The notes below the pieces were generated by a model. The model was not told the origin of the DNA and did not search any database. It was given only the letters and a program-made list of their open reading frames with translations. Positions 1 through 18,489 of a stretch of DNA of 64,000 nucleotides are shown here, one piece after another (positions within the stretch are counted from its first letter, which is position 1; every line of letters starts with the position of its first letter). Source of the DNA: Candidatus Saganbacteria bacterium (GTDB lineage Bacteria; Margulisbacteria; WOR-1; XYC2-FULL-46-14; WPAF01). Location: positions 78,639 through 142,638 of the forward strand of contig WPAF01000001.1 of assembly GCA_009772965.1 (NCBI GenBank), given 5' to 3'. A program made the position numbers and the translations under genes.

Positions 1-697
1 CGATACGATTGATCGCCAACAAGCACGCAGCAGCAACATCGCCAGCATAAATAAAATCTCTTAGAGTATCTCCTGACCCCCAAATTTCTAAAGGATTTTG
101 ACGCTTCGCCACCTTACAAACCAAGGCAGGCAAAACATGACAGGTCGCTGGATTAAAATCTCCATATTCCCCATAAACAGCGGTAGGCCGAAAGACAATT
201 GTAGACATTTTTCGTTCAAGTTTAGTAGCATACATTTTGCACATTATTTCAAGATATCTATTCATCCATCCTACTGCAAAATTAGAATTACAAGGATCAC
301 CCAAAAACATCTCTTCTTCTTTTGCCGGTCGATCTAAAGGAGGATACCCTGTAGCACTACTCAACCAAACTATTTTTTTAACTCCCGCTTCATAAGCGGC
401 TTCCATCATCTGAAAATTCATCGTAAGATTAGCTATTGCAAAAGAGAGATTTTTGGGCCGGCGATCAATTTTAGCTGCAAACATTATTGCAAAATCAATC
501 TCTTTGACCACTTCTTTGCACTGCTCCATCCGGCTTAAATCTGCAGAAACAAAAGAAATATTTTTTCCTCTGATCCGAAGCTCTTTTCCAAAATCTACAG
601 CTCTAACCAAATAATCATCTTGATTGGTTAATCTCAAAAGAATATGCGAACCAATCAATCCGGCAGCACCAGTTATTAATATGCGTTTAGCGCACAT
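1..697 (-). CDS. NAD-dependent epimerase/dehydratase-like extended SDR (GDP-fucose-synthase-like); C-terminus cut by window edge
   Basis: Absent from the ORF track because there is no stop in the window. Hand translation from ATG at 697-695 gives MCAKRILITGAAGLIGSHILLRL... with a Rossmann GxxGxxG. The start overlaps the upstream stop by 1 nt (TAATG). Paralog of 5576-6571. Confidence 0.7.
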   Translation of the reverse strand, partial: MCAKRILITGAAGLIGSHILLRLTNQDDYLVRAVDFGKELRIRGKNISFVSADLSRMEQCKEVVKEIDFAIMFAAKIDRRPKNLSFAIANLTMNFQMMEAAYEAGVKKIVWLSSATGYPPLDRPAKEEEMFLGDPCNSNFAVGWMNRYLEIMCKMYATKLERKMSTIVFRPTAVYGEYGDFNPATCHVLPALVCKVAKRQNPLEIWGSGDTLRDFIYAGDVAAACLLAINRI

Positions 698-1479
698 TAA
701 AACGCTTTCCCTTCGCCGCCATCCACCGTAATGGTAGCGCCGTTAACCAAACTCGCCTTTTCAGAACAAATAAAAGCCACTACATGGGCAACTTCTTCTG
801 GTGTACCCGGCCGACCCAAAGGGAACTGTTTGTCAGCTAACCTTTTAAACCCTTCAGGATCTTTTTTTCGCGCCTCATCCCACCCCGTATCTGGGATCAT
901 TATGGTTCCGGGCACGATAGTATTAAAAGTTATCCCATCTCTTGCCAATTCGGGCTTTGACGACAAAGTTTTCATGATAGCAATCTCTGAGGATTTGGCC
1001 GCAGAATACCAAGGGCGGCCACCTGTCTCTCGTCCGCATAAAGAACTTATAGTTACAACTCGTCCCCATTTTTGCTTTCGCATATAGGGAAGCGCTTTAA
1101 CCGTAAAACGGGCAGCAGCTAAAGCATTTTTGCTAAACACCTCTTGCCAAACTTTATCATCAGTTTCTTCAATGCTCTCTTTCCCCCATCGCCCACCACC
1201 ACCGACATTGTTAATTAAAATGTGAATAGTCCCCAATTGCCGTATAAAATGTTCCATAATATTTTCTATATCCGCAAGCACCATGGCATCACCAATAAGA
1301 CCCAAAGCTTTTACCCCTTTGGCTTCAATTTCTTTCTTAACCGCATTTACTAATTCCGGTCTGCGTGCACATATTCCGACATTGCATCCTTCTTCTGCCA
1401 GTGCCAGGGCAATAGCTCTCCCAATGCCATGACTTCCGCCAGTCACTAATGCATTTTTCCCCTTCAGCGCAAGCTCCAT
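697..1479 (-). CDS. Classical short-chain dehydrogenase/reductase (FabG-like ketoreductase)
   Basis: TGGSHGIGRAIA cofactor motif, NNVGGGG, and YSAAK (YxxxK). SD taaggag lies upstream of the ATG. Confidence 0.85.
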   Translation of the reverse strand: MELALKGKNALVTGGSHGIGRAIALALAEEGCNVGICARRPELVNAVKKEIEAKGVKALGLIGDAMVLADIENIMEHFIRQLGTIHILINNVGGGGRWGKESIEETDDKVWQEVFSKNALAAARFTVKALPYMRKQKWGRVVTISSLCGRETGGRPWYSAAKSSEIAIMKTLSSKPELARDGITFNTIVPGTIMIPDTGWDEARKKDPEGFKRLADKQFPLGRPGTPEEVAHVVAFICSEKASLVNGATITVDGGEGKAF

Positions 1480-1543: not shown

Positions 1544-2584
1544 TTAAAATGGTCCTTTAAATCTATTTTCATGGCTATAGAAAGACTCTCCAGTCAAATC
1601 CATTGGTTCAAGACCAAGTTTTTTTTCAACCGACCTTATTATAGTTACAGCATTAGGATAGAAACAATTTTCTAAATGTCTTGCTGTCGGACAAGGTGTA
1701 TGCGCAAATCCAATCCGCTCAATAGGAGATTTTAGAACGCCAAAACACTTTTCGTAAATTTTGGTTGCAATTTCCGCGCTCACACCGAAATCCACCCAAT
1801 CATTATCTGCTATTATACAATGACCTGTTTTTTTGACGGATTTAATAATAATCTCATCATTTAAAGGAGCGATAGTCCTAGGATCAACAACTTCTACGCT
1901 TATACCAATTTTTTCCAAAACATCAGCAGCCTTAACAGCTTCAACATTCATCCATGAAGTGGCAACAATGGTTATATCTTTTCCTTTCTTCAAAATATTC
2001 GCTTCGCCAATTGGTATGCTGTAAGGTTCCTCAGGAACATCTCCAACTTGCCAATATAACCATCTATGCTCAATAAGAATAACTGGATTATCATCACGAA
2101 TTGCTGCAATAAGCAGTCCTTTTGCATCTTTAGGAGTAGTGGGAAGAACCACCTTCAAACCTGGGATATGGGCAAAGGTTGAAAACATGCTTTTGCTGTG
2201 TTGAAATGATTGTCCCCACCCCCTGCCAACCACAGCTCTAATAACCAAGGGCACTTTTAATGTTCCTCCAGTCCCGTATCTATAGCAAGAAATCATGTTT
2301 GCAAGTTGATTTATTGCCAAAAGCAAAAAGTCAACGCGAATATGAACATGTATTGGCCTCATTTTATTAATTGCAGCACCCAATCCAAAGCCAGTCATAG
2401 CATCTTCAGAAATAGGCGTGTCAAAGCATCTTTCTTTCCCAAACTTCTTTAATAGCCCAACCGTACTTCCAAACACACCCACATGGTCAGGAACACCTAT
2501 CCCATAAACAAAAATATTCGAATCTCGCTCCATTTCCTGCAACATTGCTTCATTCAGTGCTTCACAATAAGTAATATTCCTCAT
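1544..2584 (-). CDS. ThDP-dependent 2-oxoacid dehydrogenase E1 beta-like subunit (transketolase Pyr + C-terminal domains), orphan pair 1
   Basis: FGKERCFDTPISEDAMTGFGLGAA and PIHVHIRVDFLLLAINQL are typical E1-beta motifs. 4-nt overlap with the alpha gene. Confidence 0.85.
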   Translation of the reverse strand: MRNITYCEALNEAMLQEMERDSNIFVYGIGVPDHVGVFGSTVGLLKKFGKERCFDTPISEDAMTGFGLGAAINKMRPIHVHIRVDFLLLAINQLANMISCYRYGTGGTLKVPLVIRAVVGRGWGQSFQHSKSMFSTFAHIPGLKVVLPTTPKDAKGLLIAAIRDDNPVILIEHRWLYWQVGDVPEEPYSIPIGEANILKKGKDITIVATSWMNVEAVKAADVLEKIGISVEVVDPRTIAPLNDEIIIKSVKKTGHCIIADNDWVDFGVSAEIATKIYEKCFGVLKSPIERIGFAHTPCPTARHLENCFYPNAVTIIRSVEKKLGLEPMDLTGESFYSHENRFKGPF

Positions 2585-3552
2585 ATAACAGCCTCATTGT
2601 CACTAAATATATCTTTATACAATTCAGATTCGTCTGCAAAAGGGGCTTTCTTGGCTAAAAATATGCTCTTCTCGATTTTTTTATCAATTTGAAGCTCAAT
2701 TATTTCCAATTCTTTTCCATATCCTAATGCTAGCAATTTACTTTTTTGTAATTTTATAGGATCTCTTTTAGCCCAATCTATATATTCATTTTTTGAACGG
2801 TAACCAATATTAAAATCCTCATTAATCCCCACATGCTCAAGATACCTATAATATTTCAAATGAAGAAAACAAGGCATTTGATTTTCTTCATTCAATTTAA
2901 TTGCTTTTAAAACTAACTTATAAATTGTTTCAGCATCAGTTGATTCCTCTTTTAAAACATTGCACTTAAACTTACCAACAATGTCTGTTATTGAATCATA
3001 TCCATGCCTTTCAGATTCTGAAGTGTGAACAGCAAGCCCATTATCTTCACAAACAAACAAAACTGGTATTTTCATAAGGCAAGCAAGGTTTAAGCTTTCC
3101 CAAAAAGTACCTTCTTCAATAGCGCCATCGCCAAAAAACACGGCAACCATTTTTTTGTTTTTCAGTCTTAAATTTGCAAAAGCAGCTCCAACAGCAACTG
3201 AAATATGACTAGCCACAATTGCAGATGCTCCCATAAAACCTCTATTAGGATCACATAAATGCATTGATCCGCTTTTTCCTTTTTGCATCGAAGACACTTT
3301 CCCACACATTTCAGCAAAGAAATTATCAGTGTTTTCAGTTTTTGCCAAATATAAGGCATGAGATCGATAAGTACCAAAAACCTGATCATCATGACTTAAG
3401 GCATGACAAACCCCAACTACAATAGCTTCTTCTCCCATAGACATATGCATAGGAGTTTTCATCTCATTTTCAGGATATAATCTACGAATTTCTTCTTCCG
3501 ATTTTCTTATAAGATATAGCTTTCTATAAATATCCATACTTAAATTTGACAT
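2581..3552 (-). CDS. ThDP-dependent E1 alpha-like subunit, orphan pair 1
   Basis: ThDP-binding motif GDGAIEEGTFWESLNLACLMKIPVLFVCEDNG; GSMHL motif. Confidence 0.85.
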   Translation of the reverse strand: MSNLSMDIYRKLYLIRKSEEEIRRLYPENEMKTPMHMSMGEEAIVVGVCHALSHDDQVFGTYRSHALYLAKTENTDNFFAEMCGKVSSMQKGKSGSMHLCDPNRGFMGASAIVASHISVAVGAAFANLRLKNKKMVAVFFGDGAIEEGTFWESLNLACLMKIPVLFVCEDNGLAVHTSESERHGYDSITDIVGKFKCNVLKEESTDAETIYKLVLKAIKLNEENQMPCFLHLKYYRYLEHVGINEDFNIGYRSKNEYIDWAKRDPIKLQKSKLLALGYGKELEIIELQIDKKIEKSIFLAKKAPFADESELYKDIFSDNEAVI

Positions 3553-3572
3553 TATCTACTCTTCCTTAGGAA

Positions 3573-5579
3573 TTATCCATTTTGCTCTGTTTCGTTTTCA
3601 ATTTTAGGCTCACTGTTTGATTCCAAACATTCATTCAAATAAGCTCCCTTTTTTGTCCCATACCAGACAACTTCCCGGCACCATTCTTCCCATGTTTTCC
3701 GCTTGTTTTTGTCCCTATCGATCTGGTATTGGCATTTTCTCTTTTCCAAATGAATTTTTTCTCCATTTAGAGTTTTACGGTAAATATCATAAATGTTGTA
3801 ATCAAGGGTTATTTCTTCTTTCTCATTCGTAAAAGGCAATTTAATAAGCGCATTATTCAGCCGAATAGAATCGCCCAATAATCCATCCGGCAATTCTATT
3901 CGCTTGTTTTTTATGTATTCTTCGATGGCATCACTAGCTTCGTCATAGAACTGTTGCAAACCATTCTCATAACAAAGTTTTATAAAAACGTATTCATCAA
4001 CCGGCCACCAAATATTAAGCCACTCTTCGGAAGCAATATATTCATTGCTGCCCTGCTGGATTTCTTTCGCTTTTTTGATAAATGTTTCGTTTATTTCTGC
4101 TATCCTTTTTCGCTCACTGGTGTTTTTCATAAATATTTCAATCAACTCGCGATAGCTCACTTCTGCAACTTGATTCATTATAACAAAAACAAGCTGCATC
4201 AATTTATTAAAATGCAACAAAGATGTCACCCAGCAAAACACTCTGGCTTTTACCCATTCTTTTGCAGGCATCGTTTTCGTCCCCACAACAAGATATTGTT
4301 TTTCAGATATTTCCGAATGAACACTAATGCTTGTATGGTGCGGCGTATTAATAGATTCCACAATTTGCATGCCGTATTTAGATTGGTAGTCGGGATGGGA
4401 CATCTCCGTGTTATTTAAAATCGATAAATTAATAAACTGAATTCGATTATGCTGTCCGCTGCCAATCACACTTGCCACGCCTTCCGTAAAACTTTCATAG
4501 CTCTCGTTAGGCAACGCCAAAATCATGTCGCTGAAAGTAGATATATTATTTTTTGCAAACATTTTTTGCAGGTCTGCGTACGTCTTATTGTTTATGTTGC
4601 TACGATTGATGCTCTCTAATGTTTCTTGGTTCACAGATTGAAGCGCTAGGTTCACTCCTTTCTGTAGTCCGGAATCATTCAATATTTTTTGTATTTCAAA
4701 AATGCTTGCAGTAGAATTCTTGGTGTTTTGCACCGAAAAAGCCTCGGGATAACCATACTTTTCCTTGTTTTCCGCAACTTTTTTCGCTATTGCCATATCC
4801 CTTTTTAAAATTCCAAAATTAGCATCACAGCAGAAAACAAATTGAATTTTATTTTTGCTTATCCAATCAATTTCACAAAAAACCCGGTCTTGCGGAAATT
4901 GGAGAACTTTATTCCTTGTTTTATCTCCCCAGTAACAGTAGGAACAAGAAAAAGGGCATCCACGATTTGTTTCAATCAAAGCCGACCATTTTACATTGGG
5001 ATTAGCAGCCAATAAAGGATCAAAAGTCCCTTCCAAGTAGGGAGACGGGATCTCATTCAAGTCCTCTATTCTCTCCGAGGCACCATTAAAACAAAAAAGA
5101 CCTTCTTTGCCAAGAAAACCTATGGAAGGCACATTGTCCCATGAACGCTGCCTCGCACTCTCCAGAATTTTTAAAAATATTATTTCGCCTTCACCGTAAC
5201 AACCAATATCAATATATCTATGCTTCTTTAGAAATGTTTCCATTTCTTCCTTATTTTCAGGCACCTCGGGTCCCCCAAAAACAATTCTGCACTTCGGCGC
5301 ATTTAACTTGACTCTCTTTGCAATCTCAAGACTATTTTGATAATTCCAATTATAAACGCTAAAAAATATTATATCTGCAGATAAAAGATCTTTTACTTCC
5401 CTATCTATATCATCCTTTTTATAAATTGGCAGGAGAAAACAATAGTTTTCAGGGTTTTTCAGTTTCTTTTGGGCGTAGGATTGCAAAAGACCTATCGAAT
5501 ACGGCAGATAATACTGATCTCCGAATTTGTCGCCAATCTGAACCAATCCTACTGTTGTTTTACTGCTATTTTTATTCAT
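3573..5579 (-). CDS. Cobalamin(B12)-binding-domain radical SAM enzyme (class B)
   Basis: CxxxCxxC in NRGCPFSCSYCYW, preceded by an N-terminal Rossmann-like B12-binding region. 668 aa with a long C-terminal extension. Confidence 0.85.
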   Translation of the reverse strand: MNKNSSKTTVGLVQIGDKFGDQYYLPYSIGLLQSYAQKKLKNPENYCFLLPIYKKDDIDREVKDLLSADIIFFSVYNWNYQNSLEIAKRVKLNAPKCRIVFGGPEVPENKEEMETFLKKHRYIDIGCYGEGEIIFLKILESARQRSWDNVPSIGFLGKEGLFCFNGASERIEDLNEIPSPYLEGTFDPLLAANPNVKWSALIETNRGCPFSCSYCYWGDKTRNKVLQFPQDRVFCEIDWISKNKIQFVFCCDANFGILKRDMAIAKKVAENKEKYGYPEAFSVQNTKNSTASIFEIQKILNDSGLQKGVNLALQSVNQETLESINRSNINNKTYADLQKMFAKNNISTFSDMILALPNESYESFTEGVASVIGSGQHNRIQFINLSILNNTEMSHPDYQSKYGMQIVESINTPHHTSISVHSEISEKQYLVVGTKTMPAKEWVKARVFCWVTSLLHFNKLMQLVFVIMNQVAEVSYRELIEIFMKNTSERKRIAEINETFIKKAKEIQQGSNEYIASEEWLNIWWPVDEYVFIKLCYENGLQQFYDEASDAIEEYIKNKRIELPDGLLGDSIRLNNALIKLPFTNEKEEITLDYNIYDIYRKTLNGEKIHLEKRKCQYQIDRDKNKRKTWEEWCREVVWYGTKKGAYLNECLESNSEPKIENETEQNG

Positions 5580-6571
5580 ATTTTTGCAACAAAATAACTC
5601 TTTTTATTCTTATATTCCTTGGGATTTTGAATAAACCATTCCCAAGTTTTTTTTAACCCTTCCTTAAGAGTTGTTTTTGGGCGATAATTTATGCTTTTCT
5701 CAGCTAAAGATATATCCATTATTCTTTTATTTGCTCCTGTTGGCATACTTGCATCAAAAATATACTTAAAATCAATAATTGAAGCCAACGTTTCCATTAG
5801 CTCTTTAATTGAAATAGGTTTACCGCTTCCGAGGTTTACAAAGCCGGAAGGAGTTCCATAGTATAATGCTTGTATAATACCTTCAGCCACATCACGGCTA
5901 TAAACAAAATCTCTAATTGCACTCCCATTACCCCAGACAACCAGCGGCTGTTCCTTGTGCAGTATGCGATAAAGCAAAGAAGGGATAACCAAGGAATTCG
6001 CGGGATCAAAATTGTCTCCCGGCCCATAGACGTTGGATGGCCTGACGATCGCAAAATTATCCAGACCGTGCTCCTCTCCATATGCAAAGATCTGCGCCTC
6101 CGCCATTCTTTTTGCCCAGCCCGCAAAATCCATTGGATTGCTGTCGATCCGATATTCAGATTCCTTAAATATTTCCGCAGGAGCATAAGCGCCAACCGAA
6201 CTCGTGTATACTATTTTTTTGACTTTATTGAGCCGACAGGCCTCCAGGACATTGCTGTTCATCATCAGCATCGGCACAAAATGGCTGGCGGCTTTTTCCT
6301 TAGCAGCTTTAACCGACGCCCCGATCCCGGCAATATGGAAAACAAAGTCCATGTCTTCGGTCAGCTTTTTACAAAGGTCGAAGGAAGTCAGATCTCCGAT
6401 TATATATTCAGCTTTTTTATTCAGCCTGAGGCTATCCAAGGAAACAATCTTCAGGTGGGCCCCGGTGTCTGCCAAAATATCCGCGACTTGCCTACCGATC
6501 AATCCGGTTCCACCAGTGACTAAAATATCTTTTTTATTAAAACTCTCTAAAATATCTTTACTTATCACCAT
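5576..6571 (-). CDS. NAD-dependent epimerase/dehydratase-like extended SDR (GDP-fucose-synthase-like)
   Basis: [14 protein letters not shown] Rossmann motif. The track ORF extends to 6622, but the ATG at 6571 (MVISKD...) sits 1 nt after the upstream stop and removes a 50-nt overlap. Expected YxxxK region reads DFAGWAKRMAE. Confidence 0.75.
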   Translation of the reverse strand: MVISKDILESFNKKDILVTGGTGLIGRQVADILADTGAHLKIVSLDSLRLNKKAEYIIGDLTSFDLCKKLTEDMDFVFHIAGIGASVKAAKEKAASHFVPMLMMNSNVLEACRLNKVKKIVYTSSVGAYAPAEIFKESEYRIDSNPMDFAGWAKRMAEAQIFAYGEEHGLDNFAIVRPSNVYGPGDNFDPANSLVIPSLLYRILHKEQPLVVWGNGSAIRDFVYSRDVAEGIIQALYYGTPSGFVNLGSGKPISIKELMETLASIIDFKYIFDASMPTGANKRIMDISLAEKSINYRPKTTLKEGLKKTWEWFIQNPKEYKNKKSYFVAKI

Positions 6572-6572
6572 G

Positions 6573-7631
6573 TCAAAACGGCCCCTTGAACTCTTTATAT
6601 AGCGTCTTCTTATATTCTTCATCCGGCAATGATTGATTATGTTTTTCCTTGCCAGAACAAAGCTGATAAATATTATCTACAATATCTCCCATATCAGCAT
6701 AAAAATGTTTTTCTAACGCCTTTGTCGTCGGACAGGGAGATTTGGCCATCGAAATTTCCTTTAATGGGACTTTTAAACTGTCAGGTGCATTAACAGCAAT
6801 TATTCTCGCCACTTCCGCGCAAACCCCAAAAGAAGCCCAGCTTGTATCAGCCACAATCACTTTTCCAGTTTTTTTAACACTTTCCAATATCATGTCGACA
6901 TCGGGATGCGTCAGGCAATTAATATCTATGATCTCGACTTCTATCCCGGCTTTTTCTTTTACGTATTTTGCCGCCCGCTGTGCTTCTTGCACCATAACGG
7001 AAACAGCAACGATCGTTACGTCGCTTCCTTTTCTGATAAGATATGAGGTAAAAGGATTTTGGTCATCTCTCCGCTCTTTTACTTCAAAACTATAATCGTA
7101 TTGCAATCGATGTTCGAAGGATATCACCGGAGATTTATATTCATTTACAGCATATCGGTAACAATCCATAATGCTCTGCGCCGCCGACGGCATAATGACT
7201 GTCAATCCGGGAACATGAGAAAAAAGAGATTGCAGGCTTTGTGAATGCTGCGCCCCTTGCCCCCAACTTCGCCCGATCACTCCGCGAACCAGCATCGGCA
7301 CGGTAAAACAGCCACCGTACATATATTTGTACTTGGCGGCAGAATTAACCAGCTGGTTCATCGCTAACAGCATGAAATCATTCCTGATATGCGTGTGGAT
7401 GGGATAATAACCGCTCAGAGCCAGCCCAATGCCTAAACCAGTCATGGCATCCTCGGAGATCGGCGTATCGAAGACTCGCTCTTTGCCAAATTCTTTTTCC
7501 AGCCCAAGCGTCGTACCGAATATCCCCGTATGGTCAGTTACGCCAAGTCCGTAAAGCACGGTTTTAGGATTATCTCTTAGTGCCTCACGCATTGCTTTTG
7601 CCAGCGCTTGCCTGTAAGTCATTGTTGCCAT
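6573..7631 (-). CDS. ThDP-dependent E1 beta-like subunit, orphan pair 2
   Basis: FGKERVFDTPISEDAMTGLGIG and PIHTHIRNDFMLLAMNQL. 1-nt overlap with the alpha gene. Confidence 0.85.
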   Translation of the reverse strand: MATMTYRQALAKAMREALRDNPKTVLYGLGVTDHTGIFGTTLGLEKEFGKERVFDTPISEDAMTGLGIGLALSGYYPIHTHIRNDFMLLAMNQLVNSAAKYKYMYGGCFTVPMLVRGVIGRSWGQGAQHSQSLQSLFSHVPGLTVIMPSAAQSIMDCYRYAVNEYKSPVISFEHRLQYDYSFEVKERRDDQNPFTSYLIRKGSDVTIVAVSVMVQEAQRAAKYVKEKAGIEVEIIDINCLTHPDVDMILESVKKTGKVIVADTSWASFGVCAEVARIIAVNAPDSLKVPLKEISMAKSPCPTTKALEKHFYADMGDIVDNIYQLCSGKEKHNQSLPDEEYKKTLYKEFKGPF

Positions 7632-8551
7632 TAATAAACGTCCTTCAGAAGCTCTTCCCGCGGCGGAAAACCACTTTTTTCCGCAAAATTTACCGCTTCT
7701 GCTATTTCATTTTCGATCCTTCCCCTGTATTTTTCAATCAGCGCCCTGTTCCCGACCAGTGGATCCCGGCGCATCCATTCTTCCAGTTCTTTTCTCCCTC
7801 TGTAACCTTTATCATAATCCTCAGCAACACCAACATGTCCTTTATACCTATAAGTCATAATCTCAAGAAGGAAGGGTCGTTTAGTGTTTACAATTCCTTC
7901 CCTTATCTTTATTGTTTTTTCAAAAATATTTTCCATATCAAAGCCATCTTCTGCTAAAAAATAATCAATGCCATACGATCCAGCTAATGCTCCAAGTGTG
8001 TATGACTGCCTGATGCAGAGCGGCGCATGGATCGCCAAGCCATTATTCTCAATTACATAAAGTATTGGCAGATTCTTCAAAGAAGAAAAATTCAGGCATT
8101 CGTGAAAAGCCCCCTCTTCAGTCGCGCCATCGCCCGCCAAGGCAACTGCAATCTTAGATTCTTTCTTTAATTTTGCCGCGTAGGCAACGCCCATTGCGTG
8201 AGAAAAAATCGAACCAACTATCGCGGATGATCCCATCGAACCGTTAGCAGGAGAACAAAGATGCATTGATCCGGCTTTGCCCTTTGCCATGCCGGAATGT
8301 TTACCATACAATTCGGCAAACATTGCTTTCAAGTCTCCTCCCTTGGCAAGATAAGGCGCATGGCTTCGGTAGGTTGCAAAGACCATGTCATCCTTTTTCA
8401 GCGCTGCACAGATGGCAACAACATGATGCTCCTGGCCAATGGAGAGATGAACAGGGCTCTGGATCTTATCAGAAGGGTAGATTTCCACGATCTTTTCTTC
8501 AATCATTCTTATCCTGAGAGCCTGATAAAATAATTTTTCGAATGTATCCAT
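7631..8551 (-). CDS. ThDP-dependent E1 alpha-like subunit, orphan pair 2
   Basis: GDGATEEGAFHECLNFSSLKNLPILYVIENNG ThDP motif; GSMHL. Confidence 0.85.
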   Translation of the reverse strand: MDTFEKLFYQALRIRMIEEKIVEIYPSDKIQSPVHLSIGQEHHVVAICAALKKDDMVFATYRSHAPYLAKGGDLKAMFAELYGKHSGMAKGKAGSMHLCSPANGSMGSSAIVGSIFSHAMGVAYAAKLKKESKIAVALAGDGATEEGAFHECLNFSSLKNLPILYVIENNGLAIHAPLCIRQSYTLGALAGSYGIDYFLAEDGFDMENIFEKTIKIREGIVNTKRPFLLEIMTYRYKGHVGVAEDYDKGYRGRKELEEWMRRDPLVGNRALIEKYRGRIENEIAEAVNFAEKSGFPPREELLKDVY

Positions 8552-9541
8552 TTAAACTGTTTCCCTGGCGACAGCTTCACGGCAATGGTCTAAGAGATAT
8601 TGAACGCTTTCTTCAAAAGAATATTTCGGCTGCCAGCCAGTCTCTTTTTTGAATTTACTCACGTCCGGAACCTGCAGCGTCACATCCGCAGGGCGCAAAA
8701 GTTTCGGATCGACTTCACTTTTGATCGGCACCCGCGCAAGTTTTTTTAATAACTCCATGAATTCACCTACTTTTATCGTAGTCGGACCGCCGATATTGTA
8801 AACTTCTCCATAACGGCATTTGAGCAACGCTACCCAGTATGATTCCATAGCATCGCGAACATCAATAATGGTCCGTATCGAATCCAGGTTTCCGTGAAGC
8901 AGTATTTTTTGCTGCCCAGCTTCGATCCTGGCGACTTGCATCGTAAAAGAGGTCGCAAAAAGATCTTGCCTCCTTGGATTCAGGTATGCAAACATCCTGG
9001 TTCGTATGATCTTCATCTTATAACTGAGGTAATAGGTATAACCCAGCAGATCCTGCGCTACTTTTGAGACGGCGTAAGGGCTGGAGGGATTGATCGGGCA
9101 ATCTTCTTTGATCGGAACATTCTTCGGGTCAACCTGGCCGTAAACCTCCGAAGTGCTGCAAAGCTGGACAACAGGGTCGAGCTCTGCGATCCTGATCCCT
9201 TCCAGCAGATTTGCTGTCCCCATAATATTGTTGTTCAAGACCGAAAGCGGAGTGATAAAAGAGGCGCGCACATTGGCATGGGAGGCAAGATGGAATATCC
9301 CGTCAGGTTTTACCTGTTTCAAGGTGGAAAGAACAGAACTCAGATCGTTCAGGTCGCATTCATGCACCGTCACATTGTCCCTGATATTACGCAGATTTTC
9401 GTTGGCTGCGGTGCTGTGCCATCTCGATATCCCGTGCACCTCAATTTCGGGGTGATGATTAACTACGTATTCAGCCAGATAGCTTCCGCCTGAACCGGAC
9501 ATCCCCGTAATGATCACTTTTCTTATTTTTCTTTCGCTCAT
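8552..9541 (-). CDS. Extended SDR of the GDP-mannose 4,6-dehydratase / GDP-4-keto-6-deoxymannose reductase type
   Basis: ITGMSGSGGSYLAEYV, STSEVYG, SPYAVSK (intact S/Y/K triad), and C-terminal LRPADV...GWQPKYSFEE. Confidence 0.7.
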   Translation of the reverse strand: MSERKIRKVIITGMSGSGGSYLAEYVVNHHPEIEVHGISRWHSTAANENLRNIRDNVTVHECDLNDLSSVLSTLKQVKPDGIFHLASHANVRASFITPLSVLNNNIMGTANLLEGIRIAELDPVVQLCSTSEVYGQVDPKNVPIKEDCPINPSSPYAVSKVAQDLLGYTYYLSYKMKIIRTRMFAYLNPRRQDLFATSFTMQVARIEAGQQKILLHGNLDSIRTIIDVRDAMESYWVALLKCRYGEVYNIGGPTTIKVGEFMELLKKLARVPIKSEVDPKLLRPADVTLQVPDVSKFKKETGWQPKYSFEESVQYLLDHCREAVARETV

Positions 9542-9544
9542 AGG

Positions 9545-10477
9545 TTAAATATTGGCGTACTGGTTCCGTTTTATGATCCGGAACGCCTTAATCAGTTCCG
9601 CGATCCCTTCCTGCAGGGAAACCTGCGGCTTAAATCCCGTTCTTTCTATCTTTTCATTGCTTACGATATAATCCCTCTTATCCGGATCTTCACCTACTTC
9701 GGCTTCCACAAAATAAAAATCTGGGATCAATTTTTTTATCTCCTGGCATAATTCCAGCTTACTAAGATTTGCGTCGCTAAGCCCAACATTATACGGCTCA
9801 TTTTTCATTTTCTCAAAATTATCCAGCGAATGGATGAAAGCTCGAGCAATATCGCGCACGTGGATATAATTACGGTTAAAATGCGCTTCGAACAGCACAA
9901 TGAATCGGTCATAGAAGGCGCGGTAGGTAAAATCATTCACCAAGAGGTCAAGGCGCATCCTCGGGCTGACACCAAATGCGGTGGCAAGCCTTAATGTGAT
10001 CGCGTTGCCGGCCGCCAACAGCAAATTCTCAGCTTCTACTTTGATCTTTCCGTAAATTGAGATCGGATTCAAGGGAGTGGCTTCAGTGCAATGCTTACCT
10101 TTTTGCCCGATCCCATATCCACTGTTAGTGGTCGGATATATAATGACCTGATCTTTGCAACGCAATGACAGAATCATTTTGATGGCATCGACGATTACCG
10201 TGTGAGCCGCGATCGGATCCTTATTGCAGAGCGGGGCACCGGTAAGGCAGGCCAGCGGAAAAATGGCATCCATGTCCTTCATATGCTTCCTGACTAGCTC
10301 TTTATCCCGAGTATCACCTCTGATGATCTCAAGTTTTTTATCGTAGCAACATTCCAGCAGCGAGGTTTGGCCATACATAAAATTGTCAAGGACTGCTACT
10401 GCGTGCCCCTGTTTCAACAATTCAGGCACCATGACTGAGCCGAGATAACCGGCGCCGCCTGTAACCAATATTTTCAT
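9545..10477 (-). CDS. NAD-dependent epimerase/dehydratase family protein
   Basis: MKILVTGGAGYLGS; intact SIYGKIKVEAE (YxxxK). Confidence 0.75.
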   Translation of the reverse strand: MKILVTGGAGYLGSVMVPELLKQGHAVAVLDNFMYGQTSLLECCYDKKLEIIRGDTRDKELVRKHMKDMDAIFPLACLTGAPLCNKDPIAAHTVIVDAIKMILSLRCKDQVIIYPTTNSGYGIGQKGKHCTEATPLNPISIYGKIKVEAENLLLAAGNAITLRLATAFGVSPRMRLDLLVNDFTYRAFYDRFIVLFEAHFNRNYIHVRDIARAFIHSLDNFEKMKNEPYNVGLSDANLSKLELCQEIKKLIPDFYFVEAEVGEDPDKRDYIVSNEKIERTGFKPQVSLQEGIAELIKAFRIIKRNQYANI

Positions 10478-10707
10478 TTTTTTTCTTCCAACTCCCGTAT
10501 AACTTTCTTATAAACTTTTTTGACTTTTCCCGGAAGATTTGGATTCAATAAAATTAGAATGTTCTTGCCTAAAACCCTGTATTGTCCGCCGATCTTAGCG
10601 GCATTTAGGAAACCGCTTCTGATCAAACGCCGAAAGGTGGAATCAGAGATCTTTAAAATGGTCGTTACCTCTTGAGGGGTATAGACCTCATTTTCGTCAA
10701 CTATCAT
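10474..10707 (-). CDS. Small helix-turn-helix DNA-binding protein (excisionase/MerR-like HTH family)
   Basis: YTPQEVTTILKISDSTFRRLIRSGFLNAAKIGGQYRV resembles the excisionase-family HTH. First gene after a consensus promoter. 4-nt overlap with the next gene. Confidence 0.6.
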   Translation of the reverse strand: MIVDENEVYTPQEVTTILKISDSTFRRLIRSGFLNAAKIGGQYRVLGKNILILLNPNLPGKVKKVYKKVIRELEEKK

Positions 10708-10716
10708 AGTTGAAAA

Positions 10717-10744
10717 ATTATAGCACCTAGGCTAATTTTGTCAA
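10717..10744 (-). promoter_or_regulatory. Consensus sigma70-type promoter with extended -10 (TTGACA-N16-TGcTATAAT)
   Basis: Minus strand: -35 TTGACA at 10744-10739 and -10 TATAAT at 10722-10717, preceded by TGc. Only 9 nt separate the -10 from the ATG at 10707, and no SD is present. Confidence 0.65.
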
Positions 10745-10854: not shown

Positions 10855-11820
10855 ATGAAAACATTTTTTGTATCATTAAGTCGTTTTCCCCTTAGAATTG
10901 TCTATACCATAATCGGAGTTATATTTCGTGCAGATAAACGCATAGCGGAGAGGCTACCAAGATACTTTCCAACATACCGCGCATTTGCCGGAGAGACCAT
11001 AAACCAACTTTTCAAGTGTGTTAAGTCATCAAGATCGTTCTTGCCACAGGGGATCATCCTAGAGCCAACTAATATCTGTAATCTTAGATGCGCACATTGT
11101 GTTCCTCAATCCTTGAACGAAAAAAGAGGCATGATGGAATATGATTTTTATGTATCCATTCTCGATTCCAATCCTCAACTGACCAGTATGATCTTAAGCA
11201 GAAATGGAGAACCCTTTTTGCATCCAAATATATTTGATATGATATCTTATGCGAAGAGAAAAGGAATCTACATGGCTGTGTATACAAATGGGATGTTGCT
11301 TAAGTCGGACAGGTGTAGTGACATTATCTCGTCGGGATTAGATGAGATAAATTTTTCTTTAGAGGCCGTTGGCGATGCGTACGAGAAAAACAGAGGAGTT
11401 CCTTATAGCTTTTTTTCCGAGGCTTTATCCAGTCTTTTATCTAAACGTGCTATATCCGGATCGCGCCTTAGGGTGGGATTGAATATAGCAAAAATAGGTG
11501 CATGTGAAACCGCGCTCCGAAATATCTATGAAGAATGGGCTGGCAAAGTTGACGTTATTGATGTTGAGCCGATAATGGGTGGCAAGTCATCCAGAAGGCG
11601 TCTACCTTGCAGGACATTATGGCGCAATGTGGTTGTGCGCTGGGATGGAATTGTCCTGCCGTGTTGTATCGATATGAAGAGCAGTCTGGTTATGGGAGAT
11701 GCTAAAACGGCATCCCTTAAAGAAATATTTAATAGCCCGCAGGCAAGGGCGCTGAGATTGAAGCATATAAAAGGTGAATATCCTCCTGTGTGCGAATATT
11801 GTGATAGTCTTTTTGGTTAA
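10855..11820 (+). CDS. Radical SAM enzyme with SPASM/twitch-type auxiliary-cluster domain
   Basis: CNLRCAHC (CxxxCxxC). C-terminal CRTLWRNVVVRWDGIVLPC fits Cx9-15Gx4C, followed by CC and CEYC. One of only two plus-strand genes. Confidence 0.8.
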   Translation: MKTFFVSLSRFPLRIVYTIIGVIFRADKRIAERLPRYFPTYRAFAGETINQLFKCVKSSRSFLPQGIILEPTNICNLRCAHCVPQSLNEKRGMMEYDFYVSILDSNPQLTSMILSRNGEPFLHPNIFDMISYAKRKGIYMAVYTNGMLLKSDRCSDIISSGLDEINFSLEAVGDAYEKNRGVPYSFFSEALSSLLSKRAISGSRLRVGLNIAKIGACETALRNIYEEWAGKVDVIDVEPIMGGKSSRRRLPCRTLWRNVVVRWDGIVLPCCIDMKSSLVMGDAKTASLKEIFNSPQARALRLKHIKGEYPPVCEYCDSLFG

Positions 11821-17212: not shown

Positions 17213-18464
17213 CTTTTTTCTCCATTCTACCCTCCAATTTTGCTCTCATTTTGGGCAATACTGTGCCATATATCATAAGGGTTTCTTCGATAACTCTATC
17301 TGTATGCGCATAAGAAATCATATGCCATCCCGCGCTTAATATGCCATGTGCAGCAACTAGCTCAATCCAATACAAAAGGTCATCAGTGGGATCATAATTC
17401 AAATTATTTTTGTCAATAAAATTAATACCGAACCTGCAATCAAATCCTAATATTTCCATTCTGTCAGACAGATTGTATTTAACAATTAAACTTTTGATCC
17501 CTTCTCTAAGTTTCGCTCCTGATCTGGCTAACTGAGCAGGAACATCTGCTTGATCATAAAATGCAAGCACTGCTTTGGCGGCTGCCAGAGACAAAGTCTC
17601 TCCAGCATTAGTTAACGAAAAATAAACATCATTAAATTTAGACATAATTCCAGCCTTTCCTACTATAGCTGACAAAGGCATGCCATTGGCGATTGCCTTA
17701 CTAAAACACGATAAATCCGGGACAATATTAAACAATGCTTGCGCTCCACCCTTATGGAAGCGGAATCCTGTTACTACTTCATCAAAAATTAATACAACAT
17801 TATTATTTGTGGCTATTTCCCTTACTTTTTCAAGAAAATTATCCCTGGGCCATTCTTTAGCAGGAATTGGCTCCAAGATAATACAAGCAATATTATCTTT
17901 ATAATCTTTCAATAATTTCATCAGAAAATTAATATCATTAAAAACAAAACGATGCGATAATTCTCCTATGCATTTCGGTATGCCTCCATTTTTTGAAGTT
18001 TGACAAACATACCAATCCTGCCAGCCATGATAGCCGCAAAACAATATATGGTCTCTCCCAGTATAATAACGGGCCAGCCTCACCGCAGCAGAGGTAGCAT
18101 CATTGCCATTTTTACCAAATTTCACTTTTTCCGCGCTGGGAATTCTTTCAATTAACATCTCGGCAACCTGAATTTCTAATGGTGTTGGCAGAGAAAAAGA
18201 GATGCCTTTTTTTAATTGCTCGCTAATTGCCTTATTAACCACAGGATGATTATGCCCGAGAGTCATAGTCCCCAATCCAATAATATAATCAATATACTTA
18301 TTACCATCTACGTCCCAAGTATAGGCGCCATCACCTCTTACCAAACAAAAAGGCGTTCTGCCATTCCCAAACAATTGAACCTTGTTAAATGTTGAAGCGC
18401 TGGCTAAGGATTCCTGACTTCTTGCTAAATATTCATTACTGCTGGCCAAATTAGTATTCCCCAT
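17205..18464 (-). CDS. Class-III PLP aminotransferase (glutamate-1-semialdehyde 2,1-aminomutase-like)
   Basis: FDEVVTGFRF, the FSKAIANG Lys region, and GYHGWQDW. Confidence 0.85.
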   Translation of the reverse strand: MGNTNLASSNEYLARSQESLASASTFNKVQLFGNGRTPFCLVRGDGAYTWDVDGNKYIDYIIGLGTMTLGHNHPVVNKAISEQLKKGISFSLPTPLEIQVAEMLIERIPSAEKVKFGKNGNDATSAAVRLARYYTGRDHILFCGYHGWQDWYVCQTSKNGGIPKCIGELSHRFVFNDINFLMKLLKDYKDNIACIILEPIPAKEWPRDNFLEKVREIATNNNVVLIFDEVVTGFRFHKGGAQALFNIVPDLSCFSKAIANGMPLSAIVGKAGIMSKFNDVYFSLTNAGETLSLAAAKAVLAFYDQADVPAQLARSGAKLREGIKSLIVKYNLSDRMEILGFDCRFGINFIDKNNLNYDPTDDLLYWIELVAAHGILSAGWHMISYAHTDRVIEETLMIYGTVLPKMRAKLEGRMEKKVG

Positions 18465-18489
18465 TTATTATCATACCCCTTGATTTATC

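What the first reader, a model, noticed from the sequence alone, without database searches (positions are those of the whole stretch)
1544..8551. Two orphan ThDP E1 alpha/beta pairs, each followed by SDRs: candidate carboligase-reductase modules for C-branched sugars
Seen: E1a/E1b pairs lie at 7631-8551/6573-7631 (1-nt overlap) and at 2581-3552/1544-2584 (4-nt overlap). An extended SDR (5576-6571) follows the first pair. A FabG-like SDR plus an extended SDR (697-1479 and 1-697) follow the second. A B12 radical SAM gene (3573-5579) lies between the two modules. No lipoyl carrier, E2 or E3 accompanies them. The two beta subunits resemble each other (shared FGKERxFDTPISEDAMTG and PIHxHIRxDFxLLAxNQL) more than they resemble the lipoyl-linked beta at 25121-26128. 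The two alphas read TYRSHA(L/P)YLAK where the lipoyl-linked alpha reads NHRGHGHFIA. Upstream in the same transcription unit are a GDP-mannose-4,6-dehydratase/reductase-type SDR and another epimerase/dehydratase (8552-10477), which could supply keto-deoxy sugars. Established: the E1-like AviB1/AviB2 pair of the avilamycin cluster is implicated in attaching a two-carbon branch to a sugar (eurekanate), and the ThDP enzyme YerE with reductase YerF builds the branched sugar yersiniose. Inference: these are duplicated ThDP carboligase plus ketoreductase modules that add 2-oxoacid-derived carbon branches to nucleotide keto-sugars, not dehydrogenase complexes.
Basis: partly seen in the sequence, partly recalled or inferred. 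Interest (0 to 1): 0.72.

Follow-up and report, generated by a model that had tools for sequence, protein, structure and literature searches.

The report
Lipoyl-free ThDP enzymes in heptose-sugar operon
Two pyruvate-dehydrogenase-like enzyme pairs in a Saganbacteria cell-surface sugar operon belong to a large, unstudied family that works without the usual partner proteins and most likely welds small carbon branches onto activated seven-carbon keto-sugars.

Summary
Two adjacent E1 alpha/beta gene pairs lie in one minus-strand operon with SDRs and a B12 radical SAM enzyme. No E2, E3 or lipoyl carrier is encoded in that operon.

The pairs are not recent duplicates. They belong to two old subfamilies of a distinct clade, separate from E2/E3-linked E1s. 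This clade occurs in at least 585 species genomes across many phyla. It is never next to lipoyl proteins (0 of 62 loci) and almost always sits in nucleotide-sugar cassettes.

111 of 113 complete beta subunits end in a family-specific C-terminal tail, F[KR]GPF.

The two genes upstream match Campylobacter GDP-heptose enzymes: a C4-dehydrogenase (60% identity) and a 4,6-dehydratase.

Best reading: these are lipoyl-independent ThDP carboligases of the AviB1/AviB2, Pau11/Pau12 and KbDH type, followed by branch reductases. The chemistry is inferred from context, not shown.

This enzyme kind is known from actinomycete antibiotic clusters. Its wide presence in cell-surface glycan loci, the link to heptose, the tail and the paired use appear undescribed. 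I rate it a new variant of a known kind.

The parts
10717..10744 (-). Promoter-like site for the operon: TTGACA, 16-nt spacer, TATAAT, with an extended TG.
   Evidence: 12 of 12 consensus match, just upstream of the first gene. This is a consensus match only.
10474..10707 (-). Small HTH_17 DNA-binding protein (77 aa), first gene of the operon. It overlaps the next gene by 4 nt.
   Evidence: ORF. (gene call with PF12728 on the same contig, L004 773-1006).
9545..10477 (-). Cj1427/MlghA-like SDR. [quoted passage not shown]
   Evidence: full-length match of about 60% identity to PDB 6VO6/6VO8 (E 3e-121). That 6VO6 is Cj1427 rests on my own recollection. The function of Cj1427 is from PMC10680097 and PMC7949155.
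8552..9541 (-). GDP-heptose/GDP-mannose 4,6-dehydratase-like SDR. Predicted to make GDP-6-deoxy-4-keto-heptose.
   Evidence: [quoted passage not shown]: PF16363, 234.6 bits. The second-best match is a 4-reductase (2PK3), so the activity is not certain.
7631..8551 (-). E1 alpha, type I (306 aa), ThDP-binding subunit.
   Evidence: The GDG...NN motif and the histidines are conserved. Score is below the PDH equivalog cut-off (246 against 394 bits).
6573..7631 (-). E1 beta, type I (352 aa), with a 33-residue C-terminal extension ending FKGPF (codons 6576-6590).
5576..6571 (-). Extended SDR, GDP-fucose-synthase-like (331 aa). Candidate reductase or epimerase acting after the first ThDP step.
   Evidence: Best PDB matches are 6DNT and GDP-fucose synthetases, E about 1e-29 to 1e-31.
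3573..5579 (-). B12-binding radical SAM enzyme (668 aa), KedN5-family-like C-methyltransferase.
   Evidence: NF033712, 264.9 bits, below the cut-off of 700. The same type recurs beside E1 pairs in Reyranella and other loci.
2581..3552 (-). E1 alpha, type II (323 aa).
1544..2584 (-). E1 beta, type II (346 aa), ending FKGPF.
697..1479 (-). Classical SDR, FabG/BudC-like (260 aa). Candidate reductase of the acyloin (alpha-hydroxyketone).
   Evidence: The triad E1a2-E1b2-FabG recurs in L016, L024, L026 and L039.
1..697 (-). 5' part of an extended SDR (317 aa in full). The operon continues beyond the window with a radical SAM enzyme, an extended SDR, an HddA-like GHMP kinase, an E1-dehydrase/ColD-like DegT enzyme, a glycosyltransferase and an ABC exporter.

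Best explanation
Both E1 alpha/beta pairs are lipoyl-independent, heterotetramer-type ThDP enzymes that act as carboligases in a nucleotide-sugar pathway for a cell-surface glycan.

Proposed sequence of events. All steps are inferred unless marked otherwise.
1. A GDP-heptose is converted to a GDP-4-keto-heptose by the Cj1427-like C4-dehydrogenase (9545-10477), by the 4,6-dehydratase-like enzyme (8552-9541), or by both. The homology of these two proteins is shown; their activity is inferred.
2. The E1 pair decarboxylates a 2-oxoacid, most simply pyruvate, to the ThDP-bound hydroxyethyl carbanion. It adds this to the sugar ketone, giving a C-acetyl branch on a tertiary alcohol.
3. The SDR encoded just downstream reduces the branch ketone to a hydroxyethyl group. 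This is the Fcl-like SDR after pair 1 and the FabG/BudC-like SDR after pair 2. The KedN5-like B12 radical SAM enzyme may C-methylate the product.
4. The sugar is transferred and exported by the downstream glycosyltransferase and ABC exporter.

The two pairs belong to different old subfamilies. Each subfamily is found elsewhere right after a dehydratase of this kind. They therefore either branch two different 4-keto intermediates (6-hydroxy and 6-deoxy) or act one after the other on a single sugar.

The conserved C-terminal tail F[KR]GPF of the beta subunit is a hallmark of the lipoyl-free clade. Its role is unknown.
For: - Domain content and overlapping genes.
- Conserved ThDP/Mg motif, catalytic Glu and His residues.
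- Scores below the curated PDH E1 cut-offs.
- No E2, E3 or lipoyl protein in the operon or elsewhere in the window apart from the third module.
- At least 585 species genomes carry relatives.
- In 62 loci of 10 kb or more: lipoyl/LplA 0, adjacent E1b 59, any extended SDR 57, HddA-like GHMP kinase 48, NTP-transferase 39, B12 radical SAM 35, DegT 22.
- Recurrent extra genes are an aldo-keto reductase, GmhA-like SIS, GmhB-like HAD, RmlC-like epimerase, NUDIX and a split transketolase.
- An enzyme that forms a 4-keto sugar is present in 46 of 62 genome loci and 13 of 15 metagenome loci. It is the most frequent identifiable gene directly upstream of E1a.
- Type II relatives sit directly after the dehydratase.
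- The upstream genes match GDP-heptose C4-dehydrogenase and 4,6-dehydratase structures.
- The downstream DegT matches E1-dehydrase and ColD.
- The family is a clade apart from E2/E3-linked and lipoyl-fusion-linked betas (198 of 200 bootstraps). Types I, II and III are each supported.
- The tail is present in 111 of 113 betas and absent from 5 of 5 lipoyl- or E2-linked betas.
- Precedent from the literature: E1ab-type enzymes attach pyruvate-derived acetyl branches to keto-sugars. The branch is then reduced (by the AKR Pau7), transaminated or methylated (PMC12247030, PMC4753412, PMC4425429).
Against: - There are no biochemical data for any member of this clade.
- The catalytic histidine used for reductive acylation is retained, so the active site alone does not exclude transfer to a thiol acceptor.
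- Fcl-like SDRs are usually C4-reductases or 3,5-epimerases. That role would need an intact C4 ketone and sits awkwardly with branching at C4.
- The constant presence of a GHMP kinase plus an NTP-transferase could mean that the carbon skeleton is built before nucleotide activation.
- No guanylyltransferase, GmhA or GmhB was found in this operon itself.
- A lipoyl-carrying protein does exist about 20 kb away in the same locus.
Confidence: 0.6

Rival explanations
1. Chain builders rather than branchers. In this reading the E1 pairs act like DXS or transketolase. They add the ThDP-bound C2 unit to an aldehyde (a free or phosphorylated aldose, or an oxidised C6/C7 of the heptose) and so lengthen the chain. 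The GHMP kinase and NTP-transferase would then activate the new higher sugar.
For: - A GHMP kinase is present in 48 of 62 loci and an NTP-transferase in 39 of 62. This pairing is typical for activating a sugar that is first made in free form.
- Both alphas give weak DXP_synthase_N hits.
- A split transketolase often lies next to the E1 pair.
Against: - The kinase and transferase are best matched by HddA and HddC. GmhA- and GmhB-like genes occur in some loci, which explains these genes as an ordinary GDP-heptose supply route.
- Enzymes that make a 4-keto sugar nucleotide are the commonest direct upstream neighbours.
- The known E1ab sugar enzymes attack ketones (PMC12247030).
Confidence: 0.2
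2. Acyl donors for N-acylation through a lipoyl carrier supplied in trans. In this reading the orphan pairs load the lipoyl-NeuD/PglD fusion protein (27628-28725) with different acyl groups. These would then be transferred to amino sugars.
For: - A lipoyl-acyltransferase fusion and a lipoate ligase are encoded in the same 64-kb locus.
- The catalytic histidines are retained.
- DegT aminotransferases are common neighbours.
Against: - The fusion has its own dedicated E1 pair, here and in 3 of 3 other contigs.
- None of the 62 loci that carry the orphan family has a lipoyl domain or a ligase.
- The orphan betas form a separate clade and carry a tail that the lipoyl-linked betas lack.
Confidence: 0.08
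3. Non-ligating decarboxylase or acyloin-cleaving enzyme. In this reading the pairs decarboxylate a sugar 2-oxoacid (for example an ulosonic acid), or cleave an acyloin as acetoin:DCPIP oxidoreductase does, and so trim a sugar rather than extend it.
For: - Some homologues are auto-annotated as acetoin:DCPIP oxidoreductase.
- The locus also makes nonulosonic acids, which are 2-oxoacids.
Against: - Only 3 of 62 related loci contain NeuB or a CMP-synthetase.
- The constant partners are enzymes that form GDP-4-keto sugars, together with reductases.
- The annotations are automatic names, not tests.
Confidence: 0.07
4. Ordinary E1 components of a PDH, BCKDH or acetoin dehydrogenase complex whose E2 and E3 are encoded elsewhere in the genome.
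For: - The best NCBIfam and PDB matches are PDH and BCKDH E1 subunits.
- The rest of the genome was not available for inspection.
Against: - Scores are below all equivalog cut-offs.
- The genes are embedded in, and apparently co-transcribed with, sugar genes.
- This context is conserved across phyla.
- They form a clade distinct from E2/E3-adjacent betas.
- The C-terminal extension lies where canonical betas end.
Confidence: 0.03

Closest known systems
aKADH2-type sugar-branching ThDP enzymes of actinomycete antibiotic clusters: AviB1/AviB2 (avilamycin), Pau11/Pau12 (paulomycin), KbDH-alpha/beta (kibdelomycin), and the aldgamycin and kosinostatin enzymes
   Same: - Separate E1 alpha and beta genes of similar size. 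Pau11 is 325 aa and Pau12 is 345 aa, against 306/323 and 352/346 aa here.
- No E2 or E3 partner.
- Placed in a keto-sugar pathway.
- Followed by enzymes that reduce, transaminate or methylate the new branch (PMC12247030, PMC4753412, PMC4425429).
   Different: - Those enzymes come from Actinomycetota secondary-metabolite clusters (about 120 BGCs) and use TDP-deoxyhexoses or already attached sugars.
- Here the context is a cell-surface glycan locus built on GDP-heptose-type enzymes. It is found in many phyla.
- Here there are three subfamilies and frequent pairing with a second ThDP enzyme.
- Sequence kinship to the named enzymes could not be tested. Two Streptomyces plasmid orphan betas group as sister to the family and end in FxGPY.
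YerE/YerF (yersiniose), ErwE/ErwF and other YerE-like enzymes of LPS branched sugars
   Same: The pathway logic is the same: an NDP-4-keto-(3,6-di)deoxy sugar plus a 2-oxoacid gives a C4 acyl branch, which is then reduced with NAD(P)H. An E1-dehydrase/ColD-like enzyme is also present in the operon, as in 3,6-dideoxy pathways.
   Different: YerE is a single-chain AHAS-like flavoprotein with the TPP_enzyme_N/M/C architecture. The proteins here are E1 alpha/beta. The literature ascribes LPS branching to YerE-like enzymes, not to E1ab (PMC12247030, PMC9306805).
Heterotetrameric E1 of PDH, BCKDH and acetoin dehydrogenase complexes
   Same: The fold, the ThDP motif, the catalytic Glu and both catalytic histidines are shared. 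The best PDB matches are human PDH and BCKDH, Geobacillus PDH and Thermus E1.
   Different: - Scores are below the family cut-offs.
- There is no E2, E3 or lipoyl partner.
- The beta subunit carries a 25-33 residue C-terminal extension ending F[KR]GPF.
- The alpha subunit has YR[SG]H[AG].Y[LI]AK where E2-linked alphas have HRGHGH.
- They form a separate clade.
Campylobacter jejuni GDP-heptose modification pathway: Cj1427/MlghA C4-dehydrogenase, DdahA/WcbK 4,6-dehydratase, C3-dehydratase and C4-reductases
   Same: The two genes upstream of pair 1 match the C4-dehydrogenase (about 60% identity) and the 4,6-dehydratase. The operon also encodes Fcl-like reductases, a ColD/E1-dehydrase-like enzyme and an HddA-like kinase (PMC10680097).
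   Different: The C. jejuni pathways contain no ThDP enzyme. They only epimerise and reduce the 4-keto intermediate.
Split-gene transketolases proposed to add a hydroxyacetyl branch in miharamycin and amipurimycin biosynthesis
   Same: Many related loci carry a split transketolase directly after the E1 pair. Two ThDP-dependent C-C steps in one sugar pathway is therefore a recurring design. In this window a second E1 pair takes that position.
   Different: No transketolase is present in this window. The miharamycin enzymes themselves have not been characterised in vitro (PMC12247030).

Membership tests
aKADH2-type sugar C-branching carboligases (AviB1/B2, Pau11/12, KbDH) | Adjacent genes for an E1 alpha (PF00676) and an E1 beta (PF02779+PF02780) | tested here: met
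   Both pairs overlap, by 1 nt and by 4 nt.
aKADH2-type sugar C-branching carboligases (AviB1/B2, Pau11/12, KbDH) | Intact ThDP/Mg site and catalytic residues | tested here: met
   G[DE]G...(N/D)N in alpha; invariant E60 and H129 in beta; invariant H64 and H239 in alpha.
aKADH2-type sugar C-branching carboligases (AviB1/B2, Pau11/12, KbDH) | No E2, E3 or lipoyl carrier in the cluster | tested here: met
   The operon and all ORFs of 150 aa or more in the window. 0 of 62 related loci.
aKADH2-type sugar C-branching carboligases (AviB1/B2, Pau11/12, KbDH) | Embedded in a nucleotide-sugar pathway next to an enzyme that creates the keto acceptor | tested here: met
   A Cj1427-like or 4,6-dehydratase-like gene is present in 59 of 77 loci of 10 kb or more.
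aKADH2-type sugar C-branching carboligases (AviB1/B2, Pau11/12, KbDH) | An adjacent enzyme that could process the branch ketone (reductase, aminotransferase or methyltransferase) | tested here: met
   SDRs follow both pairs. AKR, FabG-like, DegT and B12 radical SAM genes are in related loci. Presence only; their substrates are unknown.
aKADH2-type sugar C-branching carboligases (AviB1/B2, Pau11/12, KbDH) | Sequence clade shared with AviB1/AviB2, Pau11/Pau12 or KbDH | tested here: inconclusive
   Those sequences could not be obtained. Two Streptomyces plasmid orphan E1 betas group with the family rather than with E2-linked betas and share an FxGPY end. However, they lie next to NRPS and PKS genes, not sugar genes.
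aKADH2-type sugar C-branching carboligases (AviB1/B2, Pau11/12, KbDH) | Carboligation of pyruvate onto a keto-sugar in vitro or by genetics | not testable with these tools
   This needs enzyme assays or knock-outs.
E1 of a 2-oxoacid (PDH/BCKDH/acetoin) dehydrogenase complex | Reaches the curated family score | tested here: not met
   Alphas score 246.4 and 241.8 against a cut-off of 393.85 (TIGR03182). Betas score 263.1 and 312.7 against 321 (NF006667).
E1 of a 2-oxoacid (PDH/BCKDH/acetoin) dehydrogenase complex | Cognate E2 (lipoyl, subunit-binding and catalytic domains) and E3 | tested here: not met
   None in the window or in the 10 kb beyond it. The rest of the genome was not seen.
E1 of a 2-oxoacid (PDH/BCKDH/acetoin) dehydrogenase complex | Beta subunit ends shortly after the Transketolase_C domain, the region that binds E2 in solved complexes (this point is from my own knowledge) | tested here: not met
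   A 33-residue extension lies beyond the end of the PDB alignments. The NCBIfam profile ends at residue 321-326 of 346-352.
E1 of a 2-oxoacid (PDH/BCKDH/acetoin) dehydrogenase complex | Catalytic histidines used for decarboxylation and reductive acylation | tested here: met
   Conserved. The active site alone therefore does not exclude this family.
YerE-like branching enzymes | Single-chain TPP_enzyme_N/M/C (AHAS-like) architecture | tested here: not met
   One related locus (L135) carries such a gene in addition to the E1 pair.
GDP-heptose modification pathway (C. jejuni type) | Cj1427-like C4-dehydrogenase and/or GDP-heptose 4,6-dehydratase | tested here: met
   E 3e-121, about 60% identity; E 1e-54.
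GDP-heptose modification pathway (C. jejuni type) | Supply genes GmhA, HddA, GmhB and HddC | tested here: inconclusive
   An HddA-like kinase is in the operon, but at 154.7 bits against a cut-off of 600. No GmhA, GmhB or HddC was seen in this operon. They occur in related loci.

The most novel reading that the evidence does not exclude
The two ThDP modules act one after the other on a single GDP-4-keto-heptose, with help from the B12 radical SAM methylase and the reductases. Together they build a doubly extended or carbocyclic higher sugar of C11 or more, in the manner of caryose or bradyrhizose. In related loci an E1 pair plus a split transketolase would do the same job. This sugar class would be widespread in environmental bacteria, including SAR11, SAR116, Nitrospirota, Planctomycetota and Cyanobacteria. 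The invariant C-terminal F[KR]GPF tail of the beta subunit would be the structural device that replaces E2 docking and shapes the acceptor site for a sugar nucleotide.
Probability: 0.15. Interest if true: 0.85.

Novelty: new variant of a known kind. Interest (0 to 1): 0.62.

Why it matters
C-branched and higher-carbon sugars are rare and strongly antigenic. They are hard to synthesise. In cell-envelope glycans their formation has been credited to YerE-like enzymes.

If this E1ab family does the same chemistry, branched heptose-derived sugars would be common on the surfaces of abundant uncultured bacteria. The family occurs in at least 585 species genomes and thousands of metagenome proteins, including SAR11, SAR116, Nitrospirota, Planctomycetota, Cyanobacteria and Saganbacteria.

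It would also correct a widespread annotation error. These genes are currently named pyruvate or acetoin dehydrogenase, which inflates metabolic reconstructions of central carbon metabolism in MAGs.

It would supply new carboligases for making tertiary alcohols. It would give a simple sequence marker, the F[KR]GPF-COOH tail, for telling lipoyl-free E1s from complex-bound ones.

Cultured carriers make the idea testable: Azospirillum lipoferum 4B plasmid p6, Catenovulum maritimum Q1 and Solidesulfovibrio magneticus RS-1 pDMC1.

Tried and rejected
1. I read TYRSHA.YLAK as a lost lipoyl-reaction loop. Rejected: the motif lies near residue 60, and both catalytic histidines are conserved.
2. I recalled that Legionella LPS ORF10/11 are E1 subunits. 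The paper holds no such statement, so I dropped this.
3. Literature searches for E1 enzymes in flagellin glycosylation, for lipoyl-NeuD fusions and for bradyrhizose or caryose gene content gave nothing usable. The 11-gene bradyrhizose operon is not itemised in the text.
4. I could not obtain AviB1, Pau11 or KbDH sequences.
5. An AlphaFold2 monomer model of beta-1 was meant to place the tail. The core is confident (pLDDT 90), but the tail scores about 52, so nothing can be said. A heterotetramer model was not possible.
6. My first neighbourhood census used greedy longest-ORF gene calling. It failed in high-GC loci and was replaced by a panel search over all ORFs.
7. A Biopython bootstrap timed out and was redone with a numpy distance routine.
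8. A tblastn search against plasmids, intended to find actinomycete sugar-cluster E1s, found Streptomyces E1 pairs next to NRPS and PKS genes instead. These were useful for the tail motif but not as sugar-pathway comparators.
9. I considered the idea that the orphan pairs borrow the lipoyl fusion protein. Rejected, because that protein always brings its own E1 pair.

Full report
**What is there**

The window is chromosomal DNA of a Candidatus Saganbacteria MAG. The database holds a 100%-identical protein from a 183,860-bp contig.

Nearly all genes lie on the minus strand. Housekeeping genes (pheST, dnaB, tmk, alaS, recG and others) are followed by a Wza-like exporter and a very large glycan locus.

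The finding's ORFs are all real and sit at the stated coordinates. They form one tightly packed operon, and no convincing terminator was found inside it. A 12/12 sigma-70-type promoter match lies at 10744-10717.

| Coordinates (minus strand) | Gene |
|---|---|
| 10474-10707 | small HTH_17 gene |
| 9545-10477 | SDR |
| 8552-9541 | SDR |
| 7631-8551 | E1a-1 |
| 6573-7631 | E1b-1 |
| 5576-6571 | extended SDR |
| 3573-5579 | B12 radical SAM |
| 2581-3552 | E1a-2 |
| 1544-2584 | E1b-2 |
| 697-1479 | FabG-like SDR |
| 1-697 | start of an extended SDR |

The same contig shows that the operon continues beyond the window. It adds a radical SAM enzyme, another extended SDR, a GHMP kinase, a DegT-family enzyme, a glycosyltransferase and an ABC exporter.

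**Not a dehydrogenase complex**

- Both alphas and both betas score below NCBI's curated cut-offs for PDH E1.
- Every ORF of 150 aa or more in the window was scanned. None is an E2 catalytic domain or an E3.
- The only lipoyl domain (27628-28725) belongs to the third E1 pair.
- ThDP/Mg-binding and catalytic residues are intact. These are active ThDP enzymes, not relics.
- The histidine that canonical E1s use for reductive acylation is also intact. It is nevertheless a good lineage marker.

**A large, distinct family**

The alpha-1 search returned more than 5,800 proteins at E <= 1e-20. The top 120 share 52-78% identity and carry only generic names. The beta search gave a similar picture.

A scan of one genome per species found at least 585 species with a relative. 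They include:
- Elusimicrobiota, Kiritimatiellota, Nitrospirota, Planctomycetota and Verrucomicrobiota;
- SAR11, SAR116, Methylophilaceae, Reyranella and Leptonemataceae;
- Cyanobacteria and Actinomycetota (Planktophila);
- Catenovulum maritimum and, from the protein search, a Methanoregula MAG.

I classified the neighbours in 62 loci of 10 kb or more against a panel of annotated proteins.

| Neighbour | Loci (of 62) |
|---|---|
| adjacent E1b | 59 |
| any extended SDR | 57 |
| HddA-like GHMP kinase | 48 |
| NTP-transferase | 39 |
| B12 radical SAM | 35 |
| DegT | 22 |
| FabG-like SDR | 14 |
| lipoyl domain or lipoate ligase | 0 |

Recurrent unclassified neighbours turned out to be several families:
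- an aldo-keto reductase (13 loci), the family to which Pau7 belongs, which reduces the paulomycose branch;
- GmhA-like SIS and GmhB-like HAD proteins;
- NUDIX, RmlC-like, FkbM-type and TylF-type proteins;
- a split transketolase.

**Family hallmark**

111 of 113 complete beta subunits from these loci end in F[KRM]GP[FL]-COOH on an extension of about 25-33 residues.

The extension lies beyond the point where the curated PDH-beta profile and all solved E1 betas end. It is absent from the three betas linked to lipoyl-fusion proteins and from two plasmid betas that sit next to E2 and E3.

Two Streptomyces plasmid orphan betas end in FAGPY and FIGPY. An AlphaFold2 monomer model is confident for the core but not for the tail. 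The tail's role is unexplained.

**Two old subfamilies, not a duplication**

I ran a neighbour-joining bootstrap on 37 betas with the tail columns removed.

| Grouping | Bootstraps (of 200) |
|---|---|
| tail family | 183 |
| type I (contains beta-1) | 200 |
| type II (contains beta-2) | 184 |
| type III (contains Azospirillum) | 200 |
| all of these plus Streptomyces and S. magneticus betas, apart from lipoyl- or E2-linked betas | 198 |

The module 1 region (about 5.6-10.6 kb) has 40-50% GC. Module 2 (about 2.4-5.8 kb) has 32-38% GC. This suggests separate histories.

Ten of the 62 genome loci carry two E1 pairs, and most of these combine type I with type II. They are mostly alphaproteobacterial (Reyranella, SAR116) or betaproteobacterial. 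Elsewhere, type II relatives are the only E1 pair and stand directly after a dehydratase. They are often followed by a split transketolase. Two ThDP steps in one sugar pathway is therefore a recurring design.

**What the acceptor is**

- The first enzyme gene (9545-10477) matches PDB 6VO6/6VO8 over its full length at about 60% identity (E 3e-121). From my own knowledge this entry is Cj1427/MlghA. [quoted passage not shown] The catalytic motifs align.
- The operon's kinase is HddA-like (weakly). Its DegT enzyme is E1-dehydrase/ColD-like, and its SDRs are Fcl-like.
- One of the two enzymes that form a 4-keto sugar is present in 46 of 62 genome loci and 13 of 15 metagenome loci. It is the most frequent identifiable gene directly upstream of E1a.

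The pathway thus looks like the Campylobacter GDP-heptose toolkit with ThDP enzymes inserted at the 4-keto stage.

**Mechanism proposed**

The E1 pair decarboxylates a 2-oxoacid. It adds the ThDP-bound carbanion to the ketone of a GDP-4-keto-heptose, giving an acyl branch on a tertiary alcohol. The next SDR reduces the branch. The B12 radical SAM enzyme may methylate it.

Shown here: the gene content, homologies, conservation, clade structure and context statistics. Inferred: the reaction, the donor, the position of the branch and the order of the two pairs.

The main rival is chain extension on an aldehyde before nucleotide activation, which the constant kinase/transferase pair suggests. Use of the distant lipoyl fusion protein is unlikely. 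That protein brings its own E1 pair in 3 of 3 other contigs, and the orphan family never co-occurs with lipoyl proteins.

**Relation to what is known**

E1ab-type (aKADH2) enzymes that attach a pyruvate-derived C2 branch to keto-sugars are an established class. They are known from actinomycete antibiotic clusters: avilamycin, paulomycin, aldgamycin, kosinostatin and kibdelomycin. KbDH has been characterised in vitro, and about 120 BGCs are known. Afterwards the branch is reduced, transaminated, methylated or oxidised (PMC12247030, PMC4753412, PMC4425429).

The same review assigns the branched sugars of LPS to YerE-like enzymes. I found no paper in the searchable library that describes E1ab enzymes in cell-surface glycan loci, their link to GDP-heptose enzymes, or the tail.

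Membership in the AviB/Pau/KbDH sequence clade could not be tested. I therefore file this as working like that class and as a new variant of it: a different nucleotide-sugar chemistry, a very broad taxonomic range, three subfamilies, and paired ThDP modules.

**Verdict**

The two pairs are not duplicated modules. The motif argument has no bearing on lipoyl contact.

Interest is moderate to high. The chemistry has precedent, but the scale and setting appear undescribed. The genes are systematically mis-annotated as central-metabolism dehydrogenases, and cultured carriers exist for direct tests.

Noticed in passing
window 25121-28725 (minus strand); related loci L133, L134: A protein at 27628-28725 fuses an N-terminal lipoyl domain to a NeuD/PglD-type hexapeptide sugar N-acyltransferase. 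It sits with its own E1 alpha (26720-27631), an LplA/B-like lipoate ligase (26103-26723) and an E1 beta (25121-26128), next to NeuB. No E2 catalytic domain or E3 is present. The fusion family has more than 100 clusters in metagenomes and lies next to an E1 pair in 3 of 3 other contigs, two of them nonulosonic-acid loci. This suggests acyl transfer from a 2-oxoacid to an amino sugar through lipoate, without CoA. I found no literature on it.
   Followed up: partly
window 6576-6590 and 1547-1561 (last five codons of the two betas); loci L007-L132: The invariant C-terminal F[KR]GPF-COOH tail occurs on an extension of 25-33 residues in 111 of 113 sugar-locus E1 betas. Streptomyces plasmid orphan betas have FxGPY. 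Lipoyl- or E2-linked betas lack the tail. Its function is unknown, and the monomer AlphaFold model is not informative.
   Followed up: partly
window about 5600-10600 against 2400-5800: There is a GC step inside one operon. Module 1 (HTH, two heptose SDRs, E1 pair 1 and an SDR) has 40-50% GC. The B12 radical SAM gene and E1 pair 2 have 32-38% GC, and the window average is about 38%. This suggests that module 1 was acquired separately.
   Followed up: partly
window 3573-5579, 15797-17212, 30479-31852, 34148-35725, 10855-11820 (+); L004 11729-13036: The density of radical SAM enzymes in one glycan locus is unusually high. There are four B12-binding radical SAM proteins, one SPASM radical SAM protein on the opposite strand, and a further radical SAM gene just beyond the window.
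   Followed up: no
window 17205-22654: A run of five genes lies inside the nonulosonic-acid part of the locus: a class-III aminotransferase, an unknown 275-aa protein, a PdxA-like dehydrogenase, an inositol-monophosphatase-family protein and an AMP-binding ligase. PdxA-like genes also accompany the E1 cassettes in seven Reyranella-type loci, and IMPase plus PdxA follow an E1 pair in L105.
   Followed up: no
loci L012, L013, L015, L018, L027, L089, L090, L094-L096, L098, L099, L105, L116, L132, L135: A split transketolase (Transketolase_N subunit plus Transket_pyr/C subunit) lies directly after the E1 pair. L135 also has a YerE/AHAS-like ThDP enzyme, giving three ThDP enzymes in one sugar locus.
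   Followed up: partly
e.g. L009 11957-12910; 13 loci in total: A recurrent protein of about 317 aa with no Pfam match is encoded directly downstream of E1 beta in many related loci. It is not present in this window.
   Followed up: no
L139 (S. griseofuscus pSGRIFU1) and L140 (S. albogriseolus pSALBX2): Orphan E1 alpha/beta pairs with the FxGPY tail occur on Streptomyces linear plasmids. In L139 the pair sits next to a condensation-domain protein and type II PKS genes. This points to a non-sugar use of the same lipoyl-free clade.
   Followed up: no
L143 (Solidesulfovibrio magneticus RS-1 pDMC1), L138 (Azospirillum lipoferum 4B plasmid p6), L058 (Catenovulum maritimum Q1): Cultured organisms carry the cassette. 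The S. magneticus pair lacks the tail and has an HRGHGH-type alpha. It nevertheless sits between a kinase with NUDIX and a GDP-fucose-synthase-like SDR with DegT. The Azospirillum pair lies among GT41/TPR, sulfotransferase and PEP-utilising genes.
   Followed up: partly
window 11852-13597, 31849-34131, 58117-59562: Three large ORFs (581, 760 and 481 aa) have no Pfam match at E <= 0.001. Two of them lie inside the glycan locus.
   Followed up: no
window 7631-8551: The public annotation of E1 alpha-1 starts 15 codons late (291 aa). Homologues of 306-310 aa align from residues 1-5, which supports the start at 8551.
   Followed up: yes
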